Assembly: GCA_963726745.1 (NCBI GenBank)
Contig: CAVSDR010000006.1
Span: forward strand, 864,001 to 928,000
DNA: 64,000 bases
Reading direction: 5' to 3'
DNA from: an uncultured Verrucomicrobiae bacterium
GTDB lineage: Bacteria; Verrucomicrobiota; Verrucomicrobiia; Chthoniobacterales; UBA10450
The notes beneath the pieces were generated by a model. It did not search any database. It saw only the letters and a list, made by a program, of their open reading frames with translations, and was not told the origin of the DNA. Both the position numbers and the translations under genes were made by a program. Positions 336 to 62,802 of this stretch are shown here, piece after piece; within the stretch, counting starts at the first letter, position 1, and every line of letters begins with the position of its first letter.

Positions 336-2492
336 ATGGCCCATTCCGAAGAAGCTAAACTGCACTTTCTCGACTACTGGAGAGTCATCCGCGTCCGTTG
401 GGTGCTCATCCTCCTGGCCTTCTTCCTGGTCCTCCTCACGGCTGCGGTGGTGACCTATTTTCAGCCGCGCGAGTATCAGTCTTCCGTCTTCATCGAGGTC
501 CGCTCGACCGCGCAGAATCCACGCATTTTCTCGACCGGCGACCCGAACATGCCGATCCACGATCCGCAGCTTGCTCCAACCGTTTTCCAGGTCATCCAGC
601 GGACGGGCGTGCTTTATCCGGTGATCGAAGACCTCCGCCTGCAGGACAAATGGGCCAAGGGCGGCTTCCGGCCCTCGCGCGAGCAGGCTTACCAGCGCCT
701 CCGCAGCAAGCTCAACGTCGATGAAGTGCGCAACACCGACCTTCTCCAAATCAGCGTCCTGAGCACCGATCCGCAGGAAGCCGCGGATATAGCCAACAAG
801 ATCGTGGCCGTCTACCAGGAGACGCGCGTTCAGGAAGAGAAGGAAATCCTTAATCGCGCCCTCGCGAGCATGAATGAGGAAGTCGGGAAGCAGCAGAAAA
901 AAGTCGACGACTCCGCTACGGAAGTCGCCCGTATCCGCGATCAGGAGGGCATCGTCGACCTGAACCCTGAAGGCACCGAGGACACGCAGACTCCGTTGAA
1001 TACCATCGTGCTCAAGCAAGGGGCGGAAGTGAACGACGCCGAGACCAAGGCCGCCAATCTGGTCAACCAACTCGAGCAAATCAAGAATGTCACCGGCGAC
1101 GACCTCATGCGGATGATGCCGACGTTGAATATCCAGGATCCGACGGTGCTCAAGATTCTCCCGGTCTACCAGGAAGCGGTCGCGCAGGAAGCACTGCTCT
1201 TGAACTCCGGGCTTGGGGAAAATCACCCGAAGGTCAAAGCCTTGCGCGCACAGAAAGACGTCTACACGAAGCAACTCGAAGGGCAGGTCGCGATCATCCG
1301 CAGCGCGCTCGAGAAGAACGTGCAGAGCGCGCAGTCTAATGTCGAAGAGCTTCGCAAGCGCCTGGAGGAAATCAATCAGAAGCAGCTGAGCAGCAAAAAC
1401 CTCAGCGCCACCTACACCCGCGCGAAGAACAATTACATCAAGGAGAAGCTCCTTCTCGATAGCGTCCGCGCCCGCGCACAGACCCAGACGATGGAACTCG
1501 CGATGCCGCGCATGGCCGTGAGCGTGAAGCAGGTCGCCGAGCCGGCGAGCTATCCTTCGCGGCCGCGGGTTTCGCTCAACCTCGCGCTCGGCGCGCTTGT
1601 TGGCCTCGTTGTCGGCCTCGGCCTCGCCTTCTTCATCGAGTATCTCGACACCAGCGTGAAGACGATGGAAGACGTCGAGAGCCTTCTCGGCGTGCCCGTG
1701 CTCGCGATCATTCCGAAGAACATCAAGCTCCTGCACAAAGAGGCGGGCGACACCCCGGATGCCGAGGCCTATCGCATCCTGCGCACGAACATTGAATTCA
1801 ACCGCAAGAACCCCGAGGCCAACGCCATCTCCATGGTCAGCGGCGGCCCGGGCGAAGGGAAATCCACCACGCTGGCTAATTTGGCTTTCACCTCCGCGCA
1901 GGGCGGCTACACCACTTTGATCGTCGACGCCGATCTTCGCCGTCCGGTGCAGCATTCCTTCTGGGATGTGAGCAACAAAGTTGGCCTAACGAACTATCTC
2001 ACCACCGACATCCCGCTGGAGGACGTGATCCTGCCGACGACGGTGGAGAATCTCTCCATCCTCCCCAGCGGCATCCTGCCGGCTGATGCTGTCGGCATCC
2101 TCAATTCTCAGCGCATGTCCGACATGATCGCGGAGTTGAAGACCCGTTACGACATCGTCTTCTTCGATTCCCCACCAATGCTCGGCGTGAGTGATGCCTC
2201 CGTGCTCGCGAGCGAAGTCGACCAGACGATCATGGTGGTGCAACATCGCCGCTTCCCGCGCGCTATGCTCAGCCGGGTGAAGCAAGCCGTGCTCGGCGTC
2301 GGTGGCACCGTTCTCGGTGTCGTCTTGAACAACGTCGACCTGAAGCACGACCAGAACTACTACTACTACACCAACTACTACGGCTACTACACGCCGCGCG
2401 AGGGCGAGAAGAAGGGCGGCCGCGAATCGCGCCGCACCGCTTCGACTACGACCACTGCGAGCAATGGTTACTCCGATGGAGAGGAATACTAA
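336..2492 (+). CDS. wzc: Polysaccharide co-polymerase / BY tyrosine kinase (Wzc family)
   Basis: Two TM segments flanking coiled coil; Walker A GPGEGKST; DADLRRP; DSPP; C-terminal Tyr cluster YYYYTNYYGYY. Confidence 0.92.
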   Translation: MAHSEEAKLHFLDYWRVIRVRWVLILLAFFLVLLTAAVVTYFQPREYQSSVFIEVRSTAQNPRIFSTGDPNMPIHDPQLAPTVFQVIQRTGVLYPVIEDLRLQDKWAKGGFRPSREQAYQRLRSKLNVDEVRNTDLLQISVLSTDPQEAADIANKIVAVYQETRVQEEKEILNRALASMNEEVGKQQKKVDDSATEVARIRDQEGIVDLNPEGTEDTQTPLNTIVLKQGAEVNDAETKAANLVNQLEQIKNVTGDDLMRMMPTLNIQDPTVLKILPVYQEAVAQEALLLNSGLGENHPKVKALRAQKDVYTKQLEGQVAIIRSALEKNVQSAQSNVEELRKRLEEINQKQLSSKNLSATYTRAKNNYIKEKLLLDSVRARAQTQTMELAMPRMAVSVKQVAEPASYPSRPRVSLNLALGALVGLVVGLGLAFFIEYLDTSVKTMEDVESLLGVPVLAIIPKNIKLLHKEAGDTPDAEAYRILRTNIEFNRKNPEANAISMVSGGPGEGKSTTLANLAFTSAQGGYTTLIVDADLRRPVQHSFWDVSNKVGLTNYLTTDIPLEDVILPTTVENLSILPSGILPADAVGILNSQRMSDMIAELKTRYDIVFFDSPPMLGVSDASVLASEVDQTIMVVQHRRFPRAMLSRVKQAVLGVGGTVLGVVLNNVDLKHDQNYYYYTNYYGYYTPREGEKKGGRESRRTASTTTTASNGYSDGEEY

Positions 2493-2493
2493 A

Positions 2494-3045
2494 ATGCGCC
2501 GCCTCGCTTCCGTCTTTTTCCTGCTGCTGGCTTTCGCCTTTACCGCGCGCGGTCAGGCGACTTTGCGCGTCGGCGATCCGATCGACTTGAAGGTGGCCGG
2601 CGTGCCCGCCGAGGAACAGGCCCAGCTAAACAACACCTACACCGTCGACAGCACCGGCTCGGTCAACTTGCCTTACATCAACAAAGTTCGCGCCGAAGGT
2701 CTCACGCCATCGCAGCTCGCCTCCGCGATCGAGCAGACCTATCGCTCGAATAAAATTTACACCAACCCCACGATCACCGCGGTCATGCAGCCAACCGCTC
2801 GTTTCGTGAATGTCGGTGGCGCTGTGCGCAATCCTTCCCGCGTTCCCTTCACCGAAGACATCACCCTTCTTGCCGCGATCAATGCCGCCGGCGGCTTCAA
2901 TGATTTCGCCGATCAGCGGAAAGTCCGCGTCCTGCGCGGGAGCAAAGTGCAGGTCTTCGACGTGCGCGAATCCCGTCGCGATCCGTCCAAGGATCTCAAG
3001 CTCCAGCCGGGCGATCGCGTGGAAGTCCCGCAGAGCTTCTTCTAA
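2494..3045 (+). CDS. Polysaccharide export protein (Poly_export + SLBB, Wza-like)
   Basis: Signal peptide; LRVGD...VDSTGSVNLPYI; GGAVRNP; AINAAGGF; LQPGD motifs. Confidence 0.88.
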   Translation: MRRLASVFFLLLAFAFTARGQATLRVGDPIDLKVAGVPAEEQAQLNNTYTVDSTGSVNLPYINKVRAEGLTPSQLASAIEQTYRSNKIYTNPTITAVMQPTARFVNVGGAVRNPSRVPFTEDITLLAAINAAGGFNDFADQRKVRVLRGSKVQVFDVRESRRDPSKDLKLQPGDRVEVPQSFF

Positions 3046-3058: not shown

Positions 3059-3637
3059 CTATTCGTCGGTCGCAATGACCGCGCGGTGCCGCCAGGCGTA
3101 GCCCAGGCCCGAGTAGAGCGTCAGGATCACGGTCACCCACAGCAGCAGCGTGCCGCCGATGTTCCAGGCGCGGCGCCACCAGTCATTCCCGTGGCTGGCT
3201 AATCCCAGCTCGAGCGAGGCCAGGAGCACCAGGAAAAAAATCACCGTGATGATCTGCCAGGACGTCTTGTGTTTCCCCAGTCGCTCCGCGCCGAGCACCT
3301 GGCCCTTCGAGCTCGCGACCAAGCGCAGGCCGGTAATGAGGAACTCGCGCGAAACGATGATTGTCGCCGCCCAAGCCGGGATCGCCTTCAGCGGCACCAG
3401 CGAGATAAACGCCGCCGCGATCATGATCTTGTCGACTAACGGATCCATCAGCTTCCCGAAATTGGTCACGTAGGAATAACGCCGCGCGATCTCGCCATCG
3501 AAGTAATCCGTGATTCCGGCAATCGCGAAGAGCACCAGCGCGATCGTGTGTCCGTAGGGCCAGTCCGAGTTCAGCGCCGCCACGAAGAAAATCGTCAACC
3601 CCAGTCGGCTCAGGGTCAGTCGGTTTGCCCAATTCAT
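3059..3637 (-). CDS. pgsA: CDP-diacylglycerol--glycerol-3-phosphate 3-phosphatidyltransferase
   Basis: NRLTLSR; DYFDGEIARR...GKLMDPLVDK; REFLITGLR; GKHKT. Confidence 0.92.
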   Translation of the reverse strand: MNWANRLTLSRLGLTIFFVAALNSDWPYGHTIALVLFAIAGITDYFDGEIARRYSYVTNFGKLMDPLVDKIMIAAAFISLVPLKAIPAWAATIIVSREFLITGLRLVASSKGQVLGAERLGKHKTSWQIITVIFFLVLLASLELGLASHGNDWWRRAWNIGGTLLLWVTVILTLYSGLGYAWRHRAVIATDE

Positions 3638-4056: not shown

Positions 4057-4114
4057 GCGTGGTAGATACGGGCAGGATTTCCGGTCAAAGCTTGGCCATC
4101 AGGAGAAACGCAAA

Positions 4115-5593
<1,479 letters not shown>

Positions 5594-5828: not shown

Positions 5829-8800
5829 TTAGTGGAAGTCGTGCGACTCGCTCCCGCGGAAGCTGGCCTGCGCCAGCGGCTCGATCGTGCGCGCCTTGAT
5901 CAGGATGACGTTGTCGTTGTTCTGCACCTCGCCGGTGATCCGCAGGAACGGCTCCTCCGTGATTAGCAGCCGCAGCTTCTCGAAGAGGTCGGGCGTCACG
6001 ATCGCATTCGAGACGCCGGTCTCGTCTTCCAGGCTGATGAAGACAAAACCTTTCGCCGTCCCGGGCCGCTGGCGGCAAATAACGTTGCCGGCGATCTCCA
6101 CCGTCGCTCCATGCCGGGCCTGGATCAGATCGCTGGCGCGCCAGGCGTTCGGCAGGTCTGCCCGGAGCAATTTCATCGGGTGCGGACCAGTCGTTAGGCT
6201 CATGGTTTCGTAATCCGCCTGCACCCGTTCCGGCATGGTCATGGGCAGGAGCGGCGATTCTTCCTTCTTTGCGCGGCCGCGCCGGCGCTGGGCGAAGAGC
6301 GGCGCCGGCGGTTGCTCCTCCACTTCCCAGAGCGCGTTCCGGCGATGGTCGCTAAAGCAGTTGAGCGCGCCGACGAGCGCGAGCGTGCGCAAGGTCTCCT
6401 GCGGCAGCGGAAGTCGCTGTCTAAAATCCTCCAGCGACTCAAAGGCCGCGGTTTCCCGTTGCCGCACGAGGGCGACCACGTGCTCCTCTCGCAGGCCGCG
6501 GACCACGCAAAAGCCCAGGCGAATCGTCTCGTGGTCGATCACCTGGCAGCCCCAGCCAGAATCGCGCACGGAAACAGGCAGCACTTTCAACCCGTGCCGG
6601 ACGGCGTCTTTCACGATCGTGGCCGGCGAGTAAAAACCCATCGGCTGGTTGTTGATCAGGCTGGCGTAAAACTCCGCCGCGCGATGCACCTTCAAGTAGG
6701 CGCTGCCGTAGGCGAGGATGGCGAAGCTGATCGCGTGCGACTCCGGGAAGCCGTAAAGCGCAAAGGAGGTGATCGATTGCAGGATGCGCTCGATCGCTTC
6801 CGGCGCGACCTGGTTCCGCTCCATCGCGCGCCGCAGCTTGACGCTGACTTTGTTCATCCGCTCCTGCGAACGGTGGAAGCTGAGCGCGCGCCGCAGCTCC
6901 TCTGCTTCCTCGCCGGAGAAGTTCGCCATGATCATCGCGATCTTAAGCAACTGCTCCTGGAAGAGCGGCACGCCGAGGGTGCGGCCGAGGATCGGCTTGA
7001 GGCGGTCGTCAAAATAAGTCACCGGCTCCTTGCCCGCGCGCCGCGCGAGATACGGATGGACCATGTCGCCCTGGATCGGGCCCGGTCGAATAATCGCGAC
7101 CTCGATCACGACATCGTAGAAACACTTCGGCTTCATCCGCGGGAGCGTGGCCATCTGCGCGCGGCTCTCGATCTGGAAAACGCCGATCGTGTCCGCCTGC
7201 TGCATGATCGCGAACGTCTGCGCGTCATCCTTCGGGATGTGCGCCAGGTCGAGCGGCCGCCCGCGTTCCCGGCAAAGCTCGAAGGCATCCTGCATCACCG
7301 CCATCATCCCCAGGCCTAACAAGTCCACCTTCACGATCCCGAGGTCCTCGCAGTCGTCCTTGTCCCACTGCGCGACCACGCGCCCGGGCATGGAGGCATT
7401 CTCCAGCGGGACGAACGAACTCAGCTTTCCCTGGCAGATGATCATCCCGCCGGAGTGCTGCCCGAGATGGCGCGGCAGGCCGTAGATCGATTCGTAGAGC
7501 CGGACGAACGCCGGCATCCGCGGATGCGCCTTCGGCAAACCGGCCTGCTCGATCTGCGCGGTCAGGTCGAGGGTGTGCGGGAAGTCGCCATTCGCGAAAA
7601 GGTGCGAGAAACGCTCGAGGATGCCGGGCGAAAAATTGAGCGCTTTCCCGATCTCGCGCGCTGCGCTCCGGCCGCGGTAGCTGATCACGTTCGCGGTCAT
7701 GGCCGCGCCGTGTTTCCCATAGCGCCGGTAAACTTCCTGGATCACGCGCTCGCGCCGGTCGCCACTCGGCAGATCGAGATCGATGTCCGGCCAGCCTTTG
7801 CGGCTCTCGTTCAGGAAACGCTCGAAGACGAGGTGATTCGAGACCGGATCGACCGGGGTAATCCCGAGGCAATAGCAGACCGCGCTGTTGGCCGCGCTCC
7901 CGCGCCCCTGGACCATGATCCCCTGCTCGCGACAGAAATTGACGATGTCCCAGACGATCAGGAAATAGCCGGAGAACCCGAGCTTCGCGATCAGCGCGAG
8001 CTCTTCGTTGATCTTCTCCTTCACCGCGCGGCTCATCGCCTCGTAACGCTGCTGCGCGCCGAAAAGCGTGATCGTGCGCAGGAAGGAATCCATGTCGTGC
8101 CCCGCCGGCACGGGGAACTGCGGGAACTCGTAGCCGATGTTCTCGAGCGAGAATTGCAGCCGGTCGGCTAAACGCTCGGTGTTCGTGATCGCCTCCGGCA
8201 AATCGCGAAAGAGCGCACGCATTTCCCGGTCGCTCTTCAGATGGCGCTCGGCATTTTGCGTGAGCAAGGTGCCGGCCGCGTCGAGGTGCGTATGCGCGCG
8301 CATGCAGGTGAAAACATCCAGCGCCTCGCGTCCGCGCGCGGTGGCGTATTGCACGCCATTGGTGGCGAGGAGCGGGAGGCGGAACTGCCCCGCGAGATCG
8401 CGGAGCGCGCGGTTTCTCCGCTCTTCGCCGCGCACGAAATGCCGCTGCAGCTCCACGTAGACATTCTCCTGGCCTAACGAGTCGATGAGCCGCTGGGCGT
8501 AGCCTGCCGAGCGCTTGGGGAGCGCAGGCTGCCAGCCTGCTGGCCGCGGCAGCTTGCCGCGACCGCGGAGTGGTAGCCCCCACCGAGAGCGCTGGTTTAT
8601 CTTCCCGTGTTTCCGGCAGGCTGCCGGAAACGGCAGGCTGGCAGCCTGCGCTCCCCGGATTCCCCAGCAAGGCCACCAATCCGTCGGCAAATTCCCGGAG
8701 CTCGCTCCAGCGCACCGCGCACTCGCCTTTCACCTCGCTCCGAAGATGCGCCTCGGTCAGGAGTGAACAGAGATTCCCGTAGCCGGCCTTGGATTTCACC

Positions 8801-9033: not shown

Positions 9034-9049
9034 GATCTCGCGCCGCTCG

Positions 9050-9970
9050 TTAGTCGTAGATCCCGTCGACTTGCCACTGCCCGGCTTCCTCGTGCACCCG
9101 TGCGAGCGCCCCGCTGGCCAGTTGCACATCCCACTCCGCGCGCGCCCAGGCAGCCGTGTCCCACCATTGACCGGAAGCGTGATATGGCCCCTTCCGCTCG
9201 ACCACTTCGCGCAATGCCGGCGCCGCGCCGTGACGAAAACGCCGGAGCACTGGGCCGCTCCCATCTTGCTGGCTAATTTCCCGCGCCTCCGGCAACTCCC
9301 AGCGAAACGCCTCCATCCGGAAAACATCCGGCCGATGCGTATCCTCCAGCACCGGCGTGCCGACGCGTTCCGCGCCGAGCAATCCGGCGAGCCGCGCGAG
9401 CGTCTCCGAAAGCTGCGCTGGGTCGCGCAGCGCGCTTTCGAAAAGGCTGAACTGCTGCCGCACCGGCCGCGTGGGCTGCGCTTCCAGCGCGACCGCGACG
9501 ATCGCCGACTCCGAGGTGAAACCCTCGAGGTGCGCCTGGAGCATGCGGAAGAGCGACTCCTCATCGTTGCTCGGCTGCGGGATTTTAAACAGCCGCTCGT
9601 AGCTCGTCCGATCGTCAAAAAGGAGCCGCAGTTTCAACTCCGCGACCACGAGATATTGCGCGCCCAGCCGCAGCGCGAATTGCTGCAGGAAACGCCGGAG
9701 CATGAAGAGCAGCGGCTCGCTCGTGGAGACCTCGTGCTCGAACTCGAAGCTCTCCGCGAAGACTTCCGGCGGCTCCACCAGGCGGAGCAAACGCGTCGCC
9801 TGGCCGCGGGCCCGTTCCCACATCCGCACCGCCTCCGCGCCCAGGCGTGCGCTCACCTCGGCCCGCGGCAGCCGGGCAAAATCGCCTAACGAATGGAGGC
9901 CCCACTGGTGCAGGAGCGCGATCACCCGGCGAATTTCCGCCGCCCGTTCCGCCTCCTGCTTCGCCGTCAT
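9050..9970 (-). CDS. imuB: ImuB / Y-family polymerase-like protein, C-terminal half (thumb, little finger, tail)
   Basis: LHQWGLHSLGDFARLPRAEVSARLG; HRPD; GPYHASGQWW; WQVDGIYD; immediately upstream of dnaE2. Confidence 0.85.
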   Translation of the reverse strand: MTAKQEAERAAEIRRVIALLHQWGLHSLGDFARLPRAEVSARLGAEAVRMWERARGQATRLLRLVEPPEVFAESFEFEHEVSTSEPLLFMLRRFLQQFALRLGAQYLVVAELKLRLLFDDRTSYERLFKIPQPSNDEESLFRMLQAHLEGFTSESAIVAVALEAQPTRPVRQQFSLFESALRDPAQLSETLARLAGLLGAERVGTPVLEDTHRPDVFRMEAFRWELPEAREISQQDGSGPVLRRFRHGAAPALREVVERKGPYHASGQWWDTAAWARAEWDVQLASGALARVHEEAGQWQVDGIYD

Positions 9971-11928
9971 TGCTTGCGCGCGGCCAGCAGGCGCGCCTTC
10001 GCTTCCGCGGAAAGCGAGGAGCTGTTGATCCAGGCCGCGGCCCGGTTGGCATCCGTGCGCATCCAGGCCGCGGCCAGCGATTCGATCTGGTTGTTGCGCG
10101 TCCCTTCATTACCGATCGTCTCGGCCCATTGCGTGGCGGTCGCGGGATCGGTCGAGACCACGCGCTGCGTGTAGGCCAGGACCGCAGCGTCGCGCGAGGC
10201 GCCGCCGGGCAGGGTCGCCAACCAGGCGCCGGCAGCGTAGGGATCGCTCTGGGCCCAGCGGCTCATCAAGCTTTCAAAGGCTTTGGTGCGCGCCTTCCCC
10301 TCGGCAAAAGTCGCCGCCCAGCGGCTGGCCGCCTGCGGATCGTCGCCGGCCCACTGCCAGGCGATGGTGCCGCTGGCCGCGGTCTGCGCCTCGGCGCTCA
10401 TTTGTGGGATCAATTTCGCGGCTTCGCGCGGATCGGTTTCGGCCACGGAAGCGATCAAGCTCGGAAGCACGGCTTCGCGCGCGGCGGGATCAGTGAGCGT
10501 GGTGGCCCAGCGCAGCGCGGCCTGCGAATCGCTCCGGGCCCACTGGCGGGCGACGTTTTCGAGCAGGCCGTTGCGGCCCTCGGTTTTGCTCGTGCGGAGC
10601 GCAAAATCCGCCGCCGCCTGCGGGTCGGCATCGCTCCATTGGCTGATGATATTAGACAGCGCATTCTGTCGCGCAGTGCCTGCGGGAAGTTTCTGCGCCC
10701 AGGCGACGGCGCTTTGGATATCGCTGTTGGCCAGTTGCCCGGCGACCGCGGCGGTGGCTTCGTCCTGCGTCTTGCCCGCAGGCAGGCTGGCGACATAATC
10801 CGCCGCCGCGGCCGGCTCCGCCTGCACCCAACTGGTGAGGGCAAAACGGAGCGCATTGCGCTGGCCATCGCCCGCAGGAAGCTGCTCGGCCCAGGCGAGC
10901 GCCGCGCGCGCATCGGTCAAGGCCCATTGACGCGCGATGTTGCCCACGGAGGCGTCGCGCACGCTGCCGCCTGGGAGCTCGTTGACCAGCGCGGCCGCGC
11001 GCTGCGGATCCTTGTTCGCCCAGCTCGAGAGAATATTTTGCAGCGCATTGTTCCGGCCTTGGCCTGGCGGAAGCGTGTTCGCCCAGGCGAAAGCGGCCTC
11101 GGCATCCTGGTTGGCCCAATTCGAACCGACCACCTGGATGGCAGCGTCACGGCTGGAACCGGCCGGCAATTGCGTGGCCCGTTCGGCCGCCACCACCGGA
11201 TCAAGCGAGGTCCACTTGCTGAAGATGGGCCAGTAAAGATTCTGCCGGGTGCGCCCGGCCGGGAGCGTCTGGAGGAAATTGAGCGCGCTTTGCGGATCCT
11301 TATCCGCCAGCGCGGAGACGATGGTTTGCATCGCCTGATCGCGCGCCGGGCCCGGCGGAAGTTGCTGCGCCCAAGTGGTCGCGGCCGCGGGATCGTGCTC
11401 CGACCAACCGGAGACGGCGCTTGTGATCGCCCAATTGCGCGAGGTCCCGGGCGTGAGCCCTTGCGCGTAAGCCACCGCAGCTGCGGGATCGAATTCCGCC
11501 CAGCGACCGATGACGAGCGAAACGAGCATGTTTTTATCCTGCGGTTTCTGGAGGCTTTCCACGAAGCCGAGCACTTCGCGCAAATTCTGCGGGCTGATGC
11601 TGTCGGCTAATTTGCTGAAGGTCGCGAAAGTGCGGCGGCTATTTGGCCGGCCAAGCGCGGTCTTCATGCGCGCGACGATGCTGGCCGCGGAAGGGGCGTC
11701 GCCGCTGGTTTCGGCTTCGGCCGCATCCGGGGTCTCCGGCGCGACTGTCGGCTGCGGCGGGGCCACGGGGTGCGGGGTGGAAGTTTTGCCAGCAGCCACG
11801 CTCGCCGTCTTCGGCCCGGCTGCGACCGAGGGCGAAGGCGCCGCGGTGTAACGGCCAAGGATCAAGCCGAGCACAAGCGCCGGAAGCGCAAAGAGACTCG
11901 GGAGAAGGAAACGCTTCACGTCATTCAT
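9967..11928 (-). CDS. Membrane-anchored or exported alpha-helical repeat protein (16 x 32-aa repeats)
   Basis: N-terminal hydrophobic segment; Pro/Ala linker; repeats W-x3-DP-x-AA-x2-W-x3-LP-x-G-x2-R; stop overlaps imuB_C start (ATGA). Confidence 0.8.
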   Translation of the reverse strand: MNDVKRFLLPSLFALPALVLGLILGRYTAAPSPSVAAGPKTASVAAGKTSTPHPVAPPQPTVAPETPDAAEAETSGDAPSAASIVARMKTALGRPNSRRTFATFSKLADSISPQNLREVLGFVESLQKPQDKNMLVSLVIGRWAEFDPAAAVAYAQGLTPGTSRNWAITSAVSGWSEHDPAAATTWAQQLPPGPARDQAMQTIVSALADKDPQSALNFLQTLPAGRTRQNLYWPIFSKWTSLDPVVAAERATQLPAGSSRDAAIQVVGSNWANQDAEAAFAWANTLPPGQGRNNALQNILSSWANKDPQRAAALVNELPGGSVRDASVGNIARQWALTDARAALAWAEQLPAGDGQRNALRFALTSWVQAEPAAAADYVASLPAGKTQDEATAAVAGQLANSDIQSAVAWAQKLPAGTARQNALSNIISQWSDADPQAAADFALRTSKTEGRNGLLENVARQWARSDSQAALRWATTLTDPAAREAVLPSLIASVAETDPREAAKLIPQMSAEAQTAASGTIAWQWAGDDPQAASRWAATFAEGKARTKAFESLMSRWAQSDPYAAGAWLATLPGGASRDAAVLAYTQRVVSTDPATATQWAETIGNEGTRNNQIESLAAAWMRTDANRAAAWINSSSLSAEAKARLLAARKQ

Positions 11929-11947
11929 ATAGGCAGGGGGTTGGATA

Positions 11948-11961
11948 TGTTCAAGTGATCG
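11948..11961 (-). promoter_or_regulatory. LexA (SOS) box variant upstream of repeat protein-imuB_C-dnaE2
   Basis: TGTTC-AAGT-GATCG; 14 bp (TCACTTGAACATAT on - strand) identical to the imuA box. Confidence 0.65.
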
Positions 11962-15734: not shown

Positions 15735-15743
15735 CGAATCGAA

Positions 15744-17700: not shown

Positions 17701-17706
17701 CCAGCA

Positions 17707-43228: not shown

Positions 43229-43271
43229 CCAGCAAGCTTGCGGTCCAGCCGGAGGCAAATCATGCTCTTCC

Positions 43272-44393: not shown

Positions 44394-44432
44394 CCGACAA
44401 ATCGCTCGTTAGGCGACGGGGCTAGATAGCGG

Positions 44433-48817: not shown

Positions 48818-49804
48818 GTGAGAAAACTGGTCCATCGTCCGCGGCGTCTGCGGCGCTCCCCGGCGGTGCGCAATCTCGTCCGCGAGACCCGCCTGAGCGC
48901 GCACGATTTCATCCTGCCGCTCTTCATCAGCGAGAAGATCGAGGGCCGCCGCGAGATCGGGAGCATGCCGGGTGTCTTCCAGCACTCGTTAGCCGACGCG
49001 GTCGAGGAAGCGCGCCGGGCGGAAGCGCTCGGGCTCCAGGCGGTGTTGCTCTTCGGCATTCCCGCGGAGAAAGACGAGCAGGCCAGCGGCGCTTACGCGG
49101 AGAACGGCGTCGTGCAGCAGGCCGTGCGCGCGATCAAAGCGCAATGCCCGGAGCTCGTTGTGATCACCGACGTTTGCCTGTGCGAATACATGAGCCACGG
49201 GCATTGCGGCGTGACCCGGCAGGATGGCGCGCACTTTCACGTTTTGAATGACGAGAGCGTCGAGTTGCTGGCTAAAACCGCGCTCTCGCACGCGCAAGCC
49301 GGAGCGGATTTCGTCGCGCCGAGCGACATGATGGATGGCCGCATCGGCGCGGTGCGCGAGATGCTCGACGCGCACGGTTTCACCGAGACCGGGATCATCA
49401 GTTACGCGGTGAAATTTGCCAGCGCCTTCTACGGCCCGTTCCGGGAAGCGGCAGAGAGTCCGCCGCAATTCGGCGACCGCCGCAGTTACCAGATGGACCC
49501 GGCCAACGGGGCGGAAGCCTTGCGCGAAGCCGCGCTCGACGTGGAGGAAGGAGCCGACATTTTGATGGTGAAGCCGGCGCTGCCTTATCTCGACATTCTC
49601 TGGCGCGTGCGCGAGCGCTTTGCCCAGCCGACCGCGGTCTATCACGTGAGCGGCGAATTCTCGATGGTGAAAGCAGGCGCGGCCGCGGGTTACTTCGACG
49701 AACGCGCCGCCGTGCTCGAGATCATGACTTCGCTCAAGCGCGCCGGCGCGGACCTGATCGTGACCTATTGGGCGAAGGAGCTCGCGGAATGGACGCGAGC
49801 CTAA
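48818..49804 (+). CDS. hemB: Porphobilinogen synthase
   Basis: RPRRLR; DVCLCEYMSHGHCG; APSDMMDGR; FYGPFREA; MVKPA. Confidence 0.97.
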   Translation: MRKLVHRPRRLRRSPAVRNLVRETRLSAHDFILPLFISEKIEGRREIGSMPGVFQHSLADAVEEARRAEALGLQAVLLFGIPAEKDEQASGAYAENGVVQQAVRAIKAQCPELVVITDVCLCEYMSHGHCGVTRQDGAHFHVLNDESVELLAKTALSHAQAGADFVAPSDMMDGRIGAVREMLDAHGFTETGIISYAVKFASAFYGPFREAAESPPQFGDRRSYQMDPANGAEALREAALDVEEGADILMVKPALPYLDILWRVRERFAQPTAVYHVSGEFSMVKAGAAAGYFDERAAVLEIMTSLKRAGADLIVTYWAKELAEWTRA

Positions 49805-52100: not shown

Positions 52101-52185
52101 GTCCTGCGACTCTGCCGACAAGCTTGCCGGGCTCAAGCGGGTTCTTTCGTTGACAGAGCCGCGCCGGCGCACCTAGATCGCGCAG

Positions 52186-53484
52186 ATGAAGTGGCGGAAC
52201 CAGTTGATCGCGCTTTTCTGCCTGCTGCTCTTCGTCGCGCTGGGCGTGGTTTACTTTAAAAACTGGGTGGTGCAGAAGCCGTTTGGGATCATTCTCTTCA
52301 TCGGCGAAGGGCTTGACCCGACCCGCCTGGCGGTCGCGCGGATCTACGCTTCCGGAGCGCAGCGCCCGCTCCATCTCGATGCGCTCAATTACAGCGCGCT
52401 GCTAAAAACGTATGGGAGCGATGCCGCAACCCCGGACCAGGCCGCGGCCGCAAGCGCGCTGGCCACCGGCGCGAAGGTCCCCAACGGATCCCTGGGCGTG
52501 GACGCAACTGGCAAAGCGCTGGCTAATCTGATGGAGCTGGCTCACCAAAGTGGGCGCATGACCGGCCTGGTGACCGACGTGCGCCTGACCGAGCCAACTG
52601 CGGCCAGCTTCTACGCGCATACCACCGAGAAAGACGACCGGCAGAAGATCGCGCAGGAGCTGGCCGAGAGCGGACAGATCGACATTCTCCTGGGCGGCGG
52701 CGGCGCAGATTTTCTCCCGCCAGCCAAGGGCGGCACGCGCACGGACGAGCGCGATCTTCTCCAGGAAATGGCCGACGCCGGTTACGACATGGTGCAGAAC
52801 CTCGACGATCTCGAGGACCTGCCGCGCTGGCGCCGGGCAAAAGCCGTGGGCATTTTTGCCGCAGGGGAAATGGCGTTTGCCGATGACGACGAGGCGCGAC
52901 CGGTGCAACCGACGTTGCCTGACATGGTCCGGCGCGCGATCGAGCTGCTGCAGTTTAATCGCGAAGGCTATTTCCTGGTGGTCGACGCCGGGCTAATGCG
53001 ACGCGCGGCGCAGCGGAATGATGCCGAGCGCACGCTCGGGCAGCTGCTCGAACTCGACCGCGCCGTGGGCGTGGCCTTGGAATACACTGGCAGCAAGTCG
53101 GCAATTTTTGTCACTGGCGACGTGGGACTCGGCGGGATGAGCTTGAATGGTTTCCCGCCGCGCGACCGCAGCGGGGCCGTTTGGCTCGGCTCTGGAGGCG
53201 ACGCCTCGCTCACCTGGGCCACGGGCCCCAACGGTCCCCCACTCGTCCGCCTGGTGCCGGAAGCGATCGTCGCGCCCTCGCCGGAGGCGACGGACGAATC
53301 CTCCGCCCTTCAGCTGGGCCCGAACCCGCCGAAACTGCGCAGCCAGCCAGCAGCGATTTTCCAGGAGCTGGCGGCGCCTACCGCGACCGACGTGCTCGTT
53401 TTAGGCAACGGCTTAGGCGCGGAGGACCTCCACGGGATCATGGAAAACACCCACCTGTTCGAGATCATCCAGGACGACCTTTAG
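52186..53484 (+). CDS. Alkaline-phosphatase-fold membrane-anchored protein with degenerate active site
   Basis: ILFIGEG; PDQAAAASALATG; GLVT; DILLGGG; QPTLPDMV; GYFLVVD; MENTHLF align to the PhoA scaffold. Confidence 0.8.
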   Translation: MKWRNQLIALFCLLLFVALGVVYFKNWVVQKPFGIILFIGEGLDPTRLAVARIYASGAQRPLHLDALNYSALLKTYGSDAATPDQAAAASALATGAKVPNGSLGVDATGKALANLMELAHQSGRMTGLVTDVRLTEPTAASFYAHTTEKDDRQKIAQELAESGQIDILLGGGGADFLPPAKGGTRTDERDLLQEMADAGYDMVQNLDDLEDLPRWRRAKAVGIFAAGEMAFADDDEARPVQPTLPDMVRRAIELLQFNREGYFLVVDAGLMRRAAQRNDAERTLGQLLELDRAVGVALEYTGSKSAIFVTGDVGLGGMSLNGFPPRDRSGAVWLGSGGDASLTWATGPNGPPLVRLVPEAIVAPSPEATDESSALQLGPNPPKLRSQPAAIFQELAAPTATDVLVLGNGLGAEDLHGIMENTHLFEIIQDDL

Positions 53485-53502
53485 CCAGCAGCATCCGCCC
53501 GG

Positions 53503-53575: not shown

Positions 53576-54928
53576 CTACGGACTGCTCGGGCCAAGCACG
53601 GGCACGAAAGTAAACGGCGGGGCCTGCGGAAGATTCGGCACCGGACCCTCCGCGGGCGACTCGGGCAGGGCAGTCTCGTCCGTCGCATCCTTCGGTTCGA
53701 GCATCGTCTTCCCGTCGAGCATGGTCTTGCCATCGATCATGGTTTTGCCGTCAGTCATCTGCGATTCCTGCGCCATGGAAATCGAGCTATTCGCGGCCAG
53801 GAGCAAGCCATTGCTGCCAAAGGCGGCCACTTCCGCGAGTGCGAAAGGCGTGCTCGCATTGTCCGCCGGCGTCCAGCGAACCATGACGTAGCGTCCGGTC
53901 ACTGCGGGAAAGTCGACCGCGGCGCGACCGCGAGTGCCGTCATCAGTCACCGCGCCCACTGCTTTCATTCCGGCCAGCGTGGCCTCGTCCAGGCGAATAT
54001 CTTGCGGCATCCCCTGCACCTCATCGTTTGCGCCGGGAAGCGTCTGCAGGACGAAAAATTCCATCCGGCCAGCGCGAGGGGTGTAAACCGAAGAGAGCCG
54101 GCGCAGGCTCGAAACTTTCCCAAGATCGATCACGGCAGAAGGCGTGGCGTCCTCAGCTGCGAAGTCGTAAGCCGTGGCCACTTGGTCGTCGATCAAATTG
54201 TTCGCTTTGCCCGGCTCGCTGCCGGAGCTGACGTAAAGGGCGCGGGCCTTCGCGTGGAGATCATTCAAGCTATAGGAAATGAGGGCGAAGCTGTCGCTCT
54301 TGTCCTGGACGGCCGATTGGCTGGCCCGCGGCGCGGTGAAATCCGAAACCTGCGGGCTAGCGTAAACGCCGAACCCAGCGATGCGGCCGGCCTGCTTGAG
54401 GTTGAAAGTGAGTTTGACGTATTTCGCTTCCGTCGGACCGACATTGGCGTGGAGGTCGCGGGCCAGTTCCTGCTGAACGAGCGTGCGCCACTGGGGGCTA
54501 TTAGCCGGCAACTTGGCGCTCGAGGAAGCGACCGTCACTTCGCCTTGCGCGCCCTCGCTCAGGAAAGAAACACTGTTGATGTTCTCGACCTTCGGCAGGG
54601 AAACCAACAGGGTCGTCTCTCCGGCCGGGAGAGCGTAGCCGACCGTGGGATCGTTGCAGAGGAGCGCGGCTTCCGCGGCATTCTTGTCGTCCCCGTTCAC
54701 GCTCAACTGCAGGCTGGCAACCGGCTGACTGCGCGGAGCGGCTTCGACATTCGCGCCGAGATGGTAGCGGGCGACGTTTTGCGGGTAAGAGGGGGACTGA
54801 GCGACGGTGAGCGCCGGCACTTTGTGCAGGACAATTTCACCTGCGGAGAGGCAGGGCGCGTGCGAAAGCGAGAGCGTGACGAGCACGGCGGCGGGAGCGA
54901 GGCGAAGGGACGTCTTCATAATTTCCAT
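53576..54928 (-). CDS. Exported beta-rich hypothetical protein with C-terminal DGKTM repeats
   Basis: Signal peptide; two discoidin-like-looking halves (KYVKLTF, RYVMVRW); own promoter and terminator. Confidence 0.72.
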   Translation of the reverse strand: MEIMKTSLRLAPAAVLVTLSLSHAPCLSAGEIVLHKVPALTVAQSPSYPQNVARYHLGANVEAAPRSQPVASLQLSVNGDDKNAAEAALLCNDPTVGYALPAGETTLLVSLPKVENINSVSFLSEGAQGEVTVASSSAKLPANSPQWRTLVQQELARDLHANVGPTEAKYVKLTFNLKQAGRIAGFGVYASPQVSDFTAPRASQSAVQDKSDSFALISYSLNDLHAKARALYVSSGSEPGKANNLIDDQVATAYDFAAEDATPSAVIDLGKVSSLRRLSSVYTPRAGRMEFFVLQTLPGANDEVQGMPQDIRLDEATLAGMKAVGAVTDDGTRGRAAVDFPAVTGRYVMVRWTPADNASTPFALAEVAAFGSNGLLLAANSSISMAQESQMTDGKTMIDGKTMLDGKTMLEPKDATDETALPESPAEGPVPNLPQAPPFTFVPVLGPSSP

Positions 54929-54969: not shown

Positions 54970-55368
54970 TATGAATCTTCGTTTTCCTTGCGTGCGCAAG
55001 AGTTTCCCTGCGGGGCTCACGGGCCGCCGGGAGGTTTTAGACAGCACCTGTCTCCTGGTGGCGGCTCGGTCATACAGCCGGGCATGGTTTACCAGACTCG
55101 TTCCGCACTCTACCGCCAGTCTAACGGCCTCCTCGCCGAGAATGAGGCAATTCATTGTGCGGTTTTTGACCGGCTCTTCGCGGCATGGCTCTACGAGAGC
55201 GCTGGCTAGTCTAACTAGTCGGCTAATTGGTCAGCGTTTTAGCTTTGAGTCCCTGAGCGTGCCCTACTTTCGGCAGGAGGCTTGCCAGATGTCCTGGCTT
55301 CACCTCGAAGTCTGGTCCGCTTAGTCCAGGGCAGTGCGCTGAAAGACTCTGAACGCGAGGAGCGTGTT

Positions 55369-59720: not shown

Positions 59721-60037
59721 TAGTTTCTCCATTGGTTTGGTTAGGTTTGGGCGTGAGGAATACGGAAGTAAGCGAAACGTGACAAGGCTTTTTTTTACTT
59801 TTTTCAAAAATCTTTGAACGCCCGGACGGGGCGCGCTGTCTCCGAAAAGCCGCCGTCGCTCCCGATTGCCGGGTTTCCTCGGTGCGCCCCACCCCGCATG
59901 GGAACGGTCTAACGAGCCCTGCGGCCGCGGCGCGACGCTGTCCCGACGGACGATGTTGCTGGCTAATTTGCCTCCGCCCTCGGCCACTGCGCGGTGCGCC
60001 GAATTGCGGTTTCTCCGGAGCAGATATAAATGCGGGG

Positions 60038-62040: not shown

Positions 62041-62058
62041 GCTATCGGGCGAGGCGGA

Positions 62059-62802
62059 ATGGTTGCCGGGAATAATAAGACACCGCGCTCGTGGAGCAAA
62101 GCCCTCACTGCGCGACCGCGCCTGGTCGCGGTCATCACCGACGCGGCGGAGCTCGCGCGGGCCGGGCGGCTTCGGCGTCTACCGGACTTTTTCGAGGTGC
62201 GGCTGGACGCGCTCCATCCCTTGAATTCAGCCACACTCGCTGCGATCGAGCGCCTGCCGGCGCCGCGCATCCTGACGGCGCGGCACCCGGAGGAAGGCGG
62301 ACTTCACCAGATGAGCCCAGCGCAGCGGCGAGCGCTCTTGGAGGCATACCTTCCGCGGGCCGGGTTGATCGATGTGGAACTGCGAGCGGCCGAGAAATTA
62401 GCCGACATTTTGGAAACGGCCCGCCGCGCCGGCGTGGGACGCATTCTCTCGGTGCACGACTTCCACCGCGCGCCCACGCTGGAACGGCTCGAGGGCTGGC
62501 TTCGCGCAGCCGCGCTTTTCCGGCCGGAGGTCTTCAAGGTCGCCGTCCGCACCGACGACGCCGAGGAATTCGCCTGCCTGCTCGAGTTCTTCCAGAAACA
62601 TCGCCGCCGCACTGCGCTCGCGGCCATGGGGGTGGGCGCCTGGGGTCGCCGCGCTCGCCTGGAGCTCGCCCGCCGCGGCTCTGTTTTGAACTACGCCCAC
62701 CTCGGCCAGGCGCGCGTCCCCGGCCAGCTCGCGCTCGCGGAACTGCGGCGCACCGGGCACTTCGGCCCATCTCCCAAGGGCAGCGCGGCGTATATATACT
62801 AG
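62059..62802 (+). CDS. aroD: Type I 3-dehydroquinate dehydratase
   Basis: EVRLD; LTARHPEEGG; IDVEL; SVHDF; KVAV; AMG; PGQ. Confidence 0.85.
   Translation: MVAGNNKTPRSWSKALTARPRLVAVITDAAELARAGRLRRLPDFFEVRLDALHPLNSATLAAIERLPAPRILTARHPEEGGLHQMSPAQRRALLEAYLPRAGLIDVELRAAEKLADILETARRAGVGRILSVHDFHRAPTLERLEGWLRAAALFRPEVFKVAVRTDDAEEFACLLEFFQKHRRRTALAAMGVGAWGRRARLELARRGSVLNYAHLGQARVPGQLALAELRRTGHFGPSPKGSAAYIY

What the first reader, a model, noticed from the sequence alone, without database searches (positions are those of the whole stretch)
1871..62406. Second iterated motif B, GYYGGCTAA(W), sharing the CTAA core
Seen: GCTGGCTAA, GTCGGCTAA or GCCGGCTAA at about 1871, 3194, 5434, 8163, 9268, 11602, 12466, 13108, 17484, 18384, 19160, 20933, 27952, 42375, 49267, 52518, 55218 and 59958. 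The complement TTAGCCRRC is at about 4763, 17697, 19697, 24232, 34290, 34819, 37939, 43225, 44390, 44489, 46438, 48416, 48989, 53481, 54501 and 62398. That is about 34 copies against roughly 2 expected from base composition, usually followed by ATT or AAA. Hybrids with motif A exist (GTCGGCTAACGA at 42375, TCGTTAGCCGAC at 48986), and A and B sit side by side at 44390-44414. Inference: either two dialects read by two paralogous DNA-binding proteins, or two halves of one recognition system. Combined density is more than one site per kb.
Basis: partly seen in the sequence, partly recalled or inferred. Interest (0 to 1): 0.82.

Follow-up and report, generated by a model that had tools for sequence, protein, structure and literature searches.

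The report
Second, species-private genome-wide DNA word
This soil bacterium's genome carries about 2,000 copies of a second 16-18-letter DNA word, found in full only in this species among those sampled and written through genes and spacers alike; it likely serves as a recognition tag for the cell's own DNA, as uptake signals do in Neisseria and Haemophilus, though uptake is untested.

Summary

The real motif is wider: 5'-SAWNKYGYYGNCTAAWTT-3'.
- The core GYYGNCTAA occurs 2,035 times in the 3.4 Mb genome and 51 times in the window.
- The 16-letter form occurs 703 times, against 3 for the reversed control.

It is a DNA-level word, not a codon or peptide effect.
- A synonymous-codon shuffle gives 81 copies against 880 observed. 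Intergenic DNA shows the same roughly 12-fold excess.
- The same flanks appear in three reading frames and between genes.
- Orientation does not follow GC skew.
- Copies of the same word avoid each other within about 200 bp. A and B copies do not avoid each other and have no preferred spacing.
- Density falls to control level in low-GC DNA.

Motif A is enriched across the genus. The extended B is found only in this genome among the five tested. Two relatives carry a shorter variant, TGTCGGCTAA.

My best reading, at 0.4, is a second uptake-signal-like self tag read independently of A. No reader protein was found and the function is untested. Earlier scan notes treated motif A elsewhere in this genome as USS-like; none shown to me covered B.

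The parts
1871..1879 (+). B word GCTGGCTAA
   Evidence: inside predicted CDS 336-2492(+), read YYG-NCT-AAn
3194..3202 (+). B word GCTGGCTAA
   Evidence: CDS 3059-3637(-), read TTA-GNC-RRC on the gene strand
3431..3439 (+).
   Evidence: CDS 3059-3637(-), TTA-GNC-RRC frame
4763..4771 (-). B word GCCGGCTAA
   Evidence: CDS 3944-5593(+) (6PGD), TTA-GNC-RRC frame
5434..5442 (+). B word GCCGGCTAA
   Evidence: CDS 3944-5593(+), YYG-NCT-AAn frame
6416..6424 (+). B word GCTGTCTAA, full extended form
   Evidence: CDS 5829-8690(-), nTT-AGN-CRR frame
8163..8171 (+). B word GTCGGCTAA
   Evidence: CDS 5829-8690(-); orthologous sites in 3 relatives lack it
9268..9276 (+). B word GCTGGCTAA, full extended form
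   Evidence: CDS 9050-9970(-), nTT-AGN-CRR frame
10652..10660 (-). B word GCTGTCTAA, full extended form
   Evidence: CDS 9967-11928(-)
11602..11610 (+). B word GTCGGCTAA
   Evidence: CDS 9967-11928(-); 3 relatives lack it at the orthologous site
12103..12111 (+). B word GTTGTCTAA
   Evidence: CDS 12031-14244(-)
12466..12474 (+). B word GTCGGCTAA, full extended form
   Evidence: CDS 12031-14244(-) (helicase); 5 relatives read CTG/CTC-GCx-GAG/GGC there
13108..13116 (+). B word GTCGGCTAA, full extended form
   Evidence: CDS 12031-14244(-); G015 has GTCGACTAA at the orthologous site, 4 other relatives do not
17484..17492 (+). B word GCTGGCTAA, full extended form
   Evidence: CDS 17254-17700(+)
17697..17705 (-). 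B word GCTGGCTAA, full extended form; its complement supplies the TAG stop of 17254-17700(+)
18138..18146 (-). B word GCCGTCTAA, full extended form
   Evidence: CDS 17754-18392(+) (LexA-like)
18384..18392 (+). B word GCTGGCTAA; its TAA is the stop of 17754-18392(+)
19160..19168 (+). B word GTCGGCTAA
   Evidence: CDS 19092-19694(+)
19697..19705 (-). B word GCTGGCTAA; its TAA is the stop of 19697-20998(-)
20933..20941 (+). B word GCTGGCTAA
   Evidence: CDS 19697-20998(-)
23541..23549 (+). B/A hybrid GTCGCCTAA+CGA
   Evidence: CDS 23526-25514(-)
24232..24240 (-). B word GCTGGCTAA
   Evidence: CDS 23526-25514(-)
27952..27960 (+). B word GCTGGCTAA
   Evidence: CDS 27514-28395(-)
28535..28543 (-). 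B/A hybrid GCTGCCTAA+CGA
   Evidence: CDS 28399-29535(-)
34290..34298 (-). B word GCCGGCTAA, full extended form
   Evidence: CDS 33440-34723(+)
34819..34827 (-). B word GCCGGCTAA, full extended form
   Evidence: CDS 34782-35255(-)
37134..37142 (+). B word GCTGTCTAA
   Evidence: CDS 35995-37200(+)
37939..37947 (-). B word GCCGGCTAA
   Evidence: CDS 37197-38258(+)
38250..38258 (+). B word GCCGACTAA; its TAA is the stop of 37197-38258(+)
38889..38897 (-). B/A hybrid GTCGTCTAA+CGA
   Evidence: CDS 38340-40595(+)
40520..40528 (+). B word GCTGCCTAA, full extended form
   Evidence: CDS 38340-40595(+)
42375..42383 (+). B/A hybrid GTCGGCTAA+CGA
   Evidence: CDS 42099-42467(-)
43225..43233 (-). B word GCTGGCTAA; its complement supplies the TAG stop of 42644-43228(+)
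44390..44398 (-). B word GTCGGCTAA; its complement supplies the TAG stop of 43272-44393(+)
44409..44417 (-). B/A hybrid GTCGCCTAA+CGA, intergenic
44489..44497 (-). B word GCCGGCTAA; its TAA is the stop of 44489-45442(-)
46438..46446 (-). B word GCTGGCTAA, full extended form
   Evidence: CDS 45399-47852(-)
48416..48424 (-). B word GCTGGCTAA
   Evidence: CDS 47983-48735(-)
48989..48997 (-). B/A hybrid GTCGGCTAA+CGA
   Evidence: CDS 48818-49804(+) (HemB)
49267..49275 (+). B word GCTGGCTAA
   Evidence: CDS 48818-49804(+)
50575..50583 (-). B word GCTGTCTAA
   Evidence: CDS 50565-52172(-)
50802..50810 (+). B/A hybrid GCCGCCTAA+CGA
   Evidence: CDS 50565-52172(-)
51016..51024 (-). B word GTCGCCTAA
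   Evidence: CDS 50565-52172(-)
52518..52526 (+). B word GCTGGCTAA, full extended form
   Evidence: CDS 52186-53484(+)
53401..53409 (-). B word GTTGCCTAA
   Evidence: CDS 52186-53484(+)
53481..53489 (-). B word GCTGGCTAA; its complement supplies the TAG stop of 52186-53484(+)
54501..54509 (-). B word GCCGGCTAA, full extended form
   Evidence: CDS 53576-54928(-)
55037..55045 (-). B word GCTGTCTAA, intergenic
55218..55226 (+). B word GTCGGCTAA, intergenic
59958..59966 (+). B word GCTGGCTAA, full extended form; overlaps the stop of the weak ORF call 59963-60523(-)
62398..62406 (-). B word GTCGGCTAA; its TAA is the stop of 62398-62760(-)

Best explanation
Motif B is a DNA-level, non-palindromic 16-18 bp word (5'-SAWNKYGYYGNCTAAWTT-3') spread evenly through this genome's native DNA, and it is likely a recognition tag for a sequence-specific DNA reader, most probably a second, species-private self-DNA uptake or recombination signal of the USS/DUS kind. 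Shown: the word's abundance, its indifference to reading frame, gene strand and GC skew, its short-range self-avoidance, its scarcity in low-GC DNA, its positional independence from motif A, and its restriction to this genome, with a shorter variant (TGTCGGCTAA) in two relatives. Partly shown, from 5 alignable sites: that copies arose by point changes in conserved genes. Inferred: that a protein reads it; that DNA fragments carrying it are favoured during uptake or recombination, so that near-matches are converted to matches over time (a molecular drive); and that A and B have separate readers sharing a preference for the core G-N-CTAA.
For: Abundance: 34 v 1.41 in the window. Genome-wide, 1,139 v 190 for the reversed control, 1,450 v 235 for GYYGNCTAAW, and 703 v 3 for the 16-letter form. 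DNA level: the synonymous-codon shuffle gives 81 v 880 observed, and intergenic DNA holds 201 v 16.6 simulated, the same roughly 12-fold excess. Copies lie in every stop-free frame plus intergenic DNA, which holds 18% of copies, and the extended flanks are the same in each class. Rare codons are used to spell it: 1,232 of 2,876 TTA codons (42.8%) lie in A or B. Point-change origin: at 5 alignable window sites, 17 of 18 site-by-relative comparisons show ordinary synonymous or similar codons instead of the word. No orientation to replication: 959 + v 956 -, Spearman rho with GC skew -0.01, and a +/- split that fits a binomial (chi2 67.6, df 64). Same-type sites avoid each other at short range, but A and B do not. 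Density rises with window GC and approaches control level below 58% GC, in 8 windows of 5 kb, like the USS-free genes without homologues described in the abstract of PMC2817400. Relatives carry variants that share a core, like the DUS dialects that share CTG (abstract of PMC3630211). ComEC, DprA, a small ComEA-like HHH ORF and three secretins are present.
Against: No uptake, binding or methylation data exist, and the organism is known only from an assembly. The competence genes are uninformative: ComEC is in 33 of 34 genus genomes whatever their motif density and in 10 of 14 control genomes. No known uptake-sequence species carries two unrelated-flank words at once. B-bearing genomes (G000, G011, G015) do not form one clade in a poorly resolved single-gene tree, whereas DUS dialects follow phylogeny (abstract of PMC3630211). 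B's specificity is graded and long, while A's is sharp, so the two may not be the same kind of thing. B does not form the inverted-pair terminators typical of Neisseria DUS (a feature recalled, not read in the papers): only 12 head-to-head pairs exist, 8 of them inside genes. No candidate reader was identified.
Confidence: 0.4

Rival explanations
1. B is an array of binding sites for a lineage-specific chromosomal DNA-binding protein whose role is not uptake. The role could be nucleoid organisation, repair or recombination targeting, or a methylation-linked role like that proposed for the cyanobacterial HIP1. The sites would be kept by selection rather than by uptake drive.
For: The long, graded, PWM-like specificity with two AT-rich patches about one helical turn apart looks like a protein footprint. 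Short-range self-avoidance would also suit spaced binding sites. Several DNA methyltransferase genes are present. HIP1 shows that hyper-abundant words exist without a known uptake role (abstracts of PMC4390886 and PMC5861425 as listed).
Against: B is not palindromic. Its spacing is near-Poisson beyond 300 bp (gap CV 0.99), with no periodicity. It has no orientation to GC skew and none significant to gene strand. The only C5-methyltransferase lies in a site-free contig end and so looks like acquired DNA. No Vsr endonuclease was found in a 94.7% complete genome. A structural site that only one species needs is hard to motivate.
Confidence: 0.3
2. B is a function-less by-product of a sequence-biased repair or gene-conversion process that turns near-matches into matches, with no benefit to the cell.
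For: Enrichment is equal in coding and non-coding DNA. Sites build on pre-existing TAA or TAG: 203 B copies embed a stop codon of a predicted gene. For motif A, core one-mismatch neighbours are at or below expectation. Density differs widely between sister genomes.
Against: A bias specifying about 21 bits over 16 positions still needs a sequence-specific reader. No Vsr was found. For B, one-mismatch neighbours are mostly enriched, not depleted. This reading does not explain why same-type sites avoid each other within 200 bp.
Confidence: 0.15
3. A and B are two halves of one bipartite recognition system.
For: They share the core G-N-CTAA. There are 393 sites where both flanks sit on one CTAA, about 8 times the chance rate.
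Against: There is no preferred A-B distance or orientation: the most frequent single A-B distance occurs 5 times against 0.49 expected, and the 50-bp bins are flat. A-B pairs show no coupling. A occurs without B in 31 of 34 genus genomes.
Confidence: 0.03
4. B is a Chi- or KOPS-like polar signal for recombination or chromosome segregation.
For: It starts with GCTGG, as E. coli Chi does (recalled). It is an over-represented word of 8-9 core bases.
Against: Both classes are defined by strand skew with replication, and here there is none (959 v 956; rho -0.01).
Confidence: 0.03
5. B is an artefact of Leu-Ala-x peptides and codon use, or a remnant of REP/MITE-type mobile repeats.
For: The two commonest frames both spell Leu-Ala. 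REP-like hairpin repeats do exist in relative G002.
Against: The codon shuffle gives 81 v 880, and the intergenic excess equals the coding excess. Conservation ends within 18 bp and there is no hairpin. The codons used (TTA 3% of Leu, GCT 8% of Ala) are rare.
Confidence: 0.02

Closest known systems
USS of Pasteurellaceae (uptake signal sequence; H. influenzae 9-base core with AT-rich flanks)
   Same: It is a non-palindromic word at about one per 1.5-2 kb, found in genes in several frames and in spacers and written by point change. It distorts peptide and codon frequencies, and it is missing from genes without homologues in relatives (abstract and table headings of PMC2817400: 1,471 copies, 65% in ORFs). 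B likewise has a GC-rich core flanked by AT-rich patches.
   Different: The sequences are unrelated and the phylum differs. Uptake bias is not shown for B. B coexists with a second word, A, in one genome. About 82% of B copies overlap predicted genes, roughly the coding share of the genome.
DUS of Neisseriaceae and its dialects
   Same: Related species carry variants that keep a short shared core: CTG there (abstract of PMC3630211), and CTAA here across A, B and the TGTCGGCTAA variant.
   Different: DUS dialects are one per genome and follow the phylogeny. Here two words coexist, and B-type words are patchy on a single-gene tree. B forms no inverted-pair terminators. No ComP-like receptor was identified.
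Motif A, GCCTAACGAG, of the same genome and genus (earlier scan notes e1-8163157 and e1-8163093)
   Same: It shares the core G-N-CTAA, has a similar copy number (2,025 CTAACGA v 2,035 GYYGNCTAA), is frame-independent, avoids its own kind at short range and is scarce in low-GC DNA.
   Different: A is enriched genus-wide, has sharp specificity over 7 invariant bases and has its information 3' of CTAA. B is private to this genome in its full form, is graded, and has its information 5' of CTAA. A and B positions are independent.
HIP1 (GCGATCGC) of cyanobacteria
   Same: It is a hyper-abundant word inside genes whose function is unresolved (abstracts of PMC4390886 and PMC5861425 as listed).
   Different: HIP1 is a palindrome recognised by orphan methyltransferases. 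B is asymmetric, and no methyltransferase link was found.

Membership tests
DNA uptake sequences (USS/DUS) | Short non-palindromic word hundreds to thousands of times over chance, genome-wide | tested here: met
   1,139 v 190; 703 v 3 for the 16-letter form; present on all 7 contigs
DNA uptake sequences (USS/DUS) | Present in coding DNA in several frames and in intergenic DNA; not explained by peptides or codons | tested here: met
DNA uptake sequences (USS/DUS) | Scarce in recently acquired DNA | tested here: met
   Density falls to about control level in windows below 58% GC (8 windows of 5 kb). The largest site-free gaps are mostly low-GC. That this DNA is acquired is inferred from composition only.
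DNA uptake sequences (USS/DUS) | Relatives carry the same word or a dialect sharing a core, following phylogeny | tested here: inconclusive
   Variants sharing CTAA exist in G011 and G015. However, the three B-bearing genomes are not one clade in a poorly resolved 6PGD tree of 26 rows.
DNA uptake sequences (USS/DUS) | Competence machinery present (ComEC, DprA, ComEA, type IV pilus secretin) | tested here: met
   This is weak evidence, because the same genes are in most control genomes and in 33 of 34 genus genomes.
DNA uptake sequences (USS/DUS) | Preferential binding and uptake of DNA carrying the word, by a dedicated receptor | not testable with these tools
   No culture, assay or receptor candidate
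HIP1-type iterated palindromes | Palindromic word | tested here: not met
   The position frequencies are asymmetric
HIP1-type iterated palindromes | Recognised by cognate methyltransferases | not testable with these tools
   Methyltransferase genes exist but their targets are unknown
Chi / KOPS polar sequences | Strand skew co-oriented with replication | tested here: not met
REP / MITE dispersed repeats | Extended similarity or a hairpin beyond the core | tested here: not met
   Information ends within 18 bp and there are no inverted arms
   B (GNCTAAW) lacks the AAC/GTT end in non-hybrid copies. No hit to TIGR02249 reached the cut-off in G000: best 80 bits v 265.

The most novel reading that the evidence does not exclude
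This genome is caught carrying two independent self-recognition words at once: the genus-wide tag A and a newly arisen, species-private tag B with its own reader. That would be a natural snapshot of how a new DNA-uptake dialect, and with it a barrier to gene exchange between sister species, is born. It would also be the first uptake-signal system outside the Proteobacteria.
Probability: 0.25. Interest if true: 0.85.

Novelty: new variant of a known kind. Interest (0 to 1): 0.68.

Why it matters
Hyper-abundant self words are established as uptake signals only in two proteobacterial families. The listings and abstracts name no others, and searches found no paper on such words in Verrucomicrobia.

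A widespread uncultured soil lineage that carries a genus-wide word plus a species-private second word would extend kin-biased gene exchange to soil communities. It would also offer a case where dialect turnover can be timed by comparative genomics.

Whatever the function, the words have visibly reshaped this genome:
- 43% of all TTA leucine codons lie in A or B.
- 472 of 2,606 predicted stop codons lie in A or B.

Codon-usage, gene-finding and HGT-detection methods applied to these genomes should take this into account.

Tried and rejected
- **Codon or peptide artefact:** rejected.
- **Replication-polar signal:** rejected.
- **Fixed A-B architecture:** rejected.
- **Terminator-like inverted pairs:** only 12 head-to-head pairs exist, 8 of them in genes. 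Intergenic density is alike in convergent, divergent and tandem spacers, at 5.3-6.2 per 10 kb.
- **Excess at gene ends:** the last decile holds 184 copies against about 83 in the others. This comes from copies whose TAA or TAG is the stop codon. I judged it roughly in line with the scarcity of TAA elsewhere, but that is an estimate, not a computation.
- **Vsr-type repair:** no Vsr found. The single C5-methyltransferase lies in a site-free contig end.
- **Integron link:** no integron integrase above the cut-off.
- **Competence genes against motif density:** ComEC is in 33 of 34 genus genomes, so it does not discriminate.
- **Other dialects in a motif-poor relative:** a 400 kb sample of G002 showed only REP-like hairpin repeats, a tandem repeat and weak A.
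- **Population variation at B sites:** three soil-metagenome runs from one study held only 6-9% of the sampled words. When laid, they gave short, low-depth contigs from mixed relatives, with 452 differences not shown, so no statement on gain or loss of B sites is possible.
- **Sharing of A sites with relatives:** only 4 A sites fell in the aligned 12 kb, too few to judge.
- **Second look-up of earlier notes by words:** returned nothing.

Full report
**1. Observation**

The DNA search found GYYGGCTAA 34 times in the window, at exactly the listed coordinates. One hundred dinucleotide-preserving shuffles gave a mean of 1.41 and a maximum of 6. The window is G000:C6:864001-928000, in a 3.41 Mb, 7-contig, 63.7% GC assembly that is 94.7% complete. 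Genome-wide the pattern occurs 1,139 times (564 + / 575 -), against 190 for the same pattern read backwards. GTCGGCTA, GCTGGCTA and GCCGGCTA are among the most over-represented 8-mers in the genome, together with words of motif A.

**2. The true shape of the word**

- Six bases upstream read S-A-W-N-K-Y. A is 82% at -5, and A or T is almost absent at -6.
- Downstream reads W-T-T.
- The base before CTAA is free: GCTG[A/C/G/T]CTAA is 15-33 times over an order-3 Markov expectation for each base.
- The last A may be T.

The consensus is therefore 5'-SAWNKYGYYGNCTAAWTT-3'. GYYGNCTAA occurs 2,035 times. The 16-letter degenerate form SAWNKYGYYGNCTAAW occurs 703 times, against 3 for its reversed control. 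The upstream module falls mainly into ATCT, AAAG and AAGT at -5..-2, with mutual information between neighbouring positions. This looks like a protein-type position-weight specificity, not a fixed repeat. Of these, 15 match the strict 16-letter form and 7 are hybrids with motif A.

**3. It is not a coding artefact**

I called genes crudely by scoring ORFs on codon usage, which gave 2,606 genes covering about 84% of the genome. All frame statements depend on these calls.

Copies of the 9-mer fall as follows:

| Reading context | Copies |
|---|---|
| TTA-GCC-RRC on the gene strand | 365 |
| YYG-GCT-AAn | 327 |
| nTT-AGC-CRR | 117 |
| Intergenic DNA (18% of copies, about the non-coding share) | 205 |
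| Other frames | minor numbers |

The extended flanks are the same in each class, including intergenic DNA.

Shuffling synonymous codons within each gene, which keeps the protein and the gene's codon usage, gave 81.25 copies (sd 10, max 104, 20 shuffles) against 880 observed in CDS. A second-order Markov simulation of intergenic DNA gave 16.6 (max 25, 10 runs) against 201 observed. The excess is thus about 11-12-fold in both compartments.

The word is spelled with rare codons: TTA is 3% of Leu and GCT is 8% of Ala. As a result, 1,232 of all 2,876 TTA codons (42.8%) lie inside A or B words.

**4. How copies arose**

Ten B copies lie in window 8000-20000. Five had alignable orthologous sequence in at least one of five same-genus genomes (about 75% nucleotide identity). 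In 17 of those 18 site-by-genome comparisons the relative has ordinary codons where G000 has the word. At 12466, for example, G000 reads CAA-TTA-GCC-GAC on the gene strand while relatives read CAG-CTG-GCG-GAG or CAA-CTC-GCC-GGC. One comparison (G015 at 13108) shows a B-type word. At these sites, copies look like point substitutions, some synonymous and some not, inside conserved housekeeping genes. Pfam identifies the window's genes as 6PGD, DnaE2-like polymerase, helicase, LexA, HemB, iPGM and the like.

**5. Distribution along the chromosome**

- Density is even across all contigs, about 17 per 50 kb for the 9-mer.
- Orientation is 959 + to 956 - over 64 bins of 50 kb. It is uncorrelated with GC skew (rho -0.01), and the split is no more variable than a binomial (chi2 67.6, df 64). 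This excludes Chi- and KOPS-type polar signals.
- Gaps are near-exponential overall (CV 0.99), but same-type sites avoid each other at short range. B-B pairs are 0.63-0.73 of expectation at 20-200 bp. A-A pairs are 0.32-0.72 below 300 bp.
- A-B pairs are not depleted (1.30, 0.99 and 1.18 at 20-300 bp) and show no preferred distance or orientation.
- The one recurrent arrangement is a head-to-head pair, GYYGNCTAA-N-TTAGNCRRC. There are 12 cases, 8 of them inside genes, so they are not terminators.
- Density of both words rises with local GC although the words are AT-richer than the genome, while the reversed controls do not rise. In the 8 windows of 5 kb below 58% GC, B is 3.0 per 10 kb against 2.0 for the control, and A is 1.25 against 1.75.
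- The largest site-free gaps are mostly low-GC.
- About 10% of B copies (203) and 13% of A copies (269) contain the stop codon of a predicted gene, on either strand. Intergenic density does not differ between convergent, divergent and tandem spacers. I read this as the word building on pre-existing TAA or TAG, not as a gene-end function.

**6. Relation to motif A**

Motif A is GCCTAACGAG(T): 2,025 copies of CTAACGA and 820 of the 10-mer, against 33 for the control.

The 6,288 CTAA tetramers divide as follows:

| Class | Copies |
|---|---|
| B flank only | 1,642 |
| A flank only | 1,632 |
| Both flanks (hybrid) | 393 |
| Neither | 2,621 |

Hybrids are about 8 times the chance rate. They are still half as frequent on A sites (19%) as on other CTAAs (38.5%). 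A's specificity is sharp: one-mismatch variants of CTAACGA are at or below expectation, except G-to-A at the CpG. B's specificity is graded. A carries its information 3' of CTAA and B carries it 5'. Taken with the independence of their positions, this argues for two separate readers that share a taste for G-N-CTAA. It argues against a bipartite site.

**7. Phylogenetic spread**

The A 10-mer exceeds its control in all 34 genomes of the genus. It barely does so in G002 (51 v 40) and reaches 1,749 v 40 in G043.

B behaves differently.
- GYYGGCTAA exceeds its control only in G000, G011 (485 v 170) and G015 (354 v 211), among 31 genomes of the genus and order. One small genome ties at 16 v 16, and the others are below control.
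- GYYGNCTAAW gives G000 1,450 v 235, G011 507 v 297 and G015 413 v 334. The other 31 genus genomes sit at 0.1-0.55 of control.
- The 16-letter form is essentially private to G000: 703 v 3, against G011 16 v 3, G015 25 v 5, G009 4 v 0 and G002 5 v 6.
- Sampled DNA shows that G011 has its own variant, TGTCGGCTAA (20 v 0.1 in 157 kb). G015 has a weak version of the same (TGTCGGCTA 18 v 0.7 in 400 kb), without the S-A-W flank (A at -5 is 31% v 82%).
- G002 has no such word, only REP-like hairpin repeats and weak A.

I built a 6PGD tree of 26 rows. I dropped G016, whose recovered segment was 352 aa. I left out G003, G005 and G032, which had split or partial matches. G006, G008, G039 and G040 had no match. 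The tree places G015 with G002 and G038 (100/99 support) and leaves G000 and G011 unresolved elsewhere. B-type words are therefore patchy, but one gene cannot settle this.

**8. Candidate machinery**

- Present in G000: ComEC (849-aa ORF), DprA, a 103-aa ComEA-like HHH ORF and three secretins.
- ComEC is in 33 of 34 genus genomes regardless of motif density and in most control genomes, so it is only permissive evidence.
- No Vsr was found.
- One C5-methyltransferase lies in a site-free 7.7 kb contig end.
- One N4/N6 methyltransferase hit and several N6-methyltransferase hits exist, with unknown targets.
- No integron integrase reaches the family cut-off.

**9. Interpretation**

What is shown: a long, asymmetric, degenerate word, kept at about one per 1.7 kb in native DNA regardless of coding. 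It is written by point change at the sites I could align, spaced away from its own kind, unoriented, and nearly species-private.

The known systems with this profile are the uptake sequences of Pasteurellaceae and Neisseriaceae.
- They occur in several reading frames, distort peptide frequencies and are absent from genes without homologues (abstract of PMC2817400).
- Their dialects share a short core (abstract of PMC3630211).

I therefore rank a USS/DUS-like self tag first, at 0.4. The steps 'a protein reads it', 'uptake or recombination is biased' and 'A and B have separate readers' are all inferred.

The rivals:

| Rival | Confidence |
|---|---|
| Site array for a chromosomal DNA-binding or methylation-linked protein, HIP1-like in spirit | 0.3 |
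| Function-less conversion bias | 0.15 |
| Bipartite A+B system | 0.03 |
| Polar signal (Chi/KOPS) | 0.03 |
| Coding or mobile-repeat artefact | 0.02 |

**10. Literature and earlier scan notes**

Full-text searches found no paper on uptake sequences or iterated words in Verrucomicrobia. I saw the search listings, and read only the abstracts of PMC2817400 and PMC3630211. A 2025 preprint in the listing (10.1101/2025.10.24.684340, abstract start only) still treats such sequences as a feature of those two families.

Earlier notes of this scan describe motif A in other windows of this genome as uptake-signal-like (e1-8163157) and as matching an integron core (e1-8163093). I confirmed A's genus-wide enrichment and found no integron integrase in G000. 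None of the notes shown to me covered motif B.

**11. Verdict**

The peptide explanation is refuted. 'Two halves' is rejected, and 'two dialects with two readers' is plausible but unproven. The finding is a new variant of a known kind: a second, species-private genome word layered on a genus-wide one, in a phylum where none is described.

Noticed in passing
whole genome G000 (predicted genes): Stop-codon use is nearly even for a 64% GC genome: TAG 919, TGA 877, TAA 810 of 2,606 crude gene calls. In 472 of these, the stop codon lies inside an A or B word.
   Followed up: partly
G000:C1, about 34,290-34,400 (outside the window): A long tandem array of the hexamer GTTGGC. It explains the over-represented GTTGGCGTTGG words (153 overlapping hits genome-wide). 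It is a simple tandem repeat, not a dispersed word.
   Followed up: partly
window 5829-8690(-), 17754-18392(+), 18512-19168(+), 19092-19694(+): Pfam hits suggest an SOS mutagenesis set: a DnaE2-like polymerase, LexA, a weak RecA-fold ORF (ImuA-like) and an IMS/ImuB-like ORF.
   Followed up: no
G000:C7:30,000-100,000 (outside the window): A low-GC (57.6-61.6%) stretch of about 70 kb holds few A words (7) and fewer B words than usual (20). One 9 kb site-free gap there overlaps an ORF of 1,871 aa. It is probably acquired DNA.
   Followed up: no
L031-L050 (G002:C10:1-400000): Relative G002 carries a dispersed REP-like element of about 40 bp (GTCATCCCGAGCC...GGCCGAGGGATCTCT, often in inverted pairs) and GTAGGA-type tandem repeats, instead of A/B-type words.
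   Followed up: partly
G005:C12:409293-409950 (relative): The ComEC match in G005 is split over two adjacent ORFs (427 aa and 141 aa). G005 has one of the lowest motif A counts in the genus (60 v 32 control). This is a single case, not a correlation.
   Followed up: no
G000, 12 places listed (e.g. C2:133112, C6:9053; none in the window): Perfect head-to-head B pairs of the form GYYGNCTAA-N-TTAGNCRRC, 19 bp palindromes. Eight are inside genes in the only stop-free frame.
   Followed up: partly
window 8518-8660 (query positions 518-660): A stretch of about 140 bp matches many places in G013 on both strands (up to 95% over 40-58 bp). This suggests a dispersed repeat shared within the genus.
   Followed up: no
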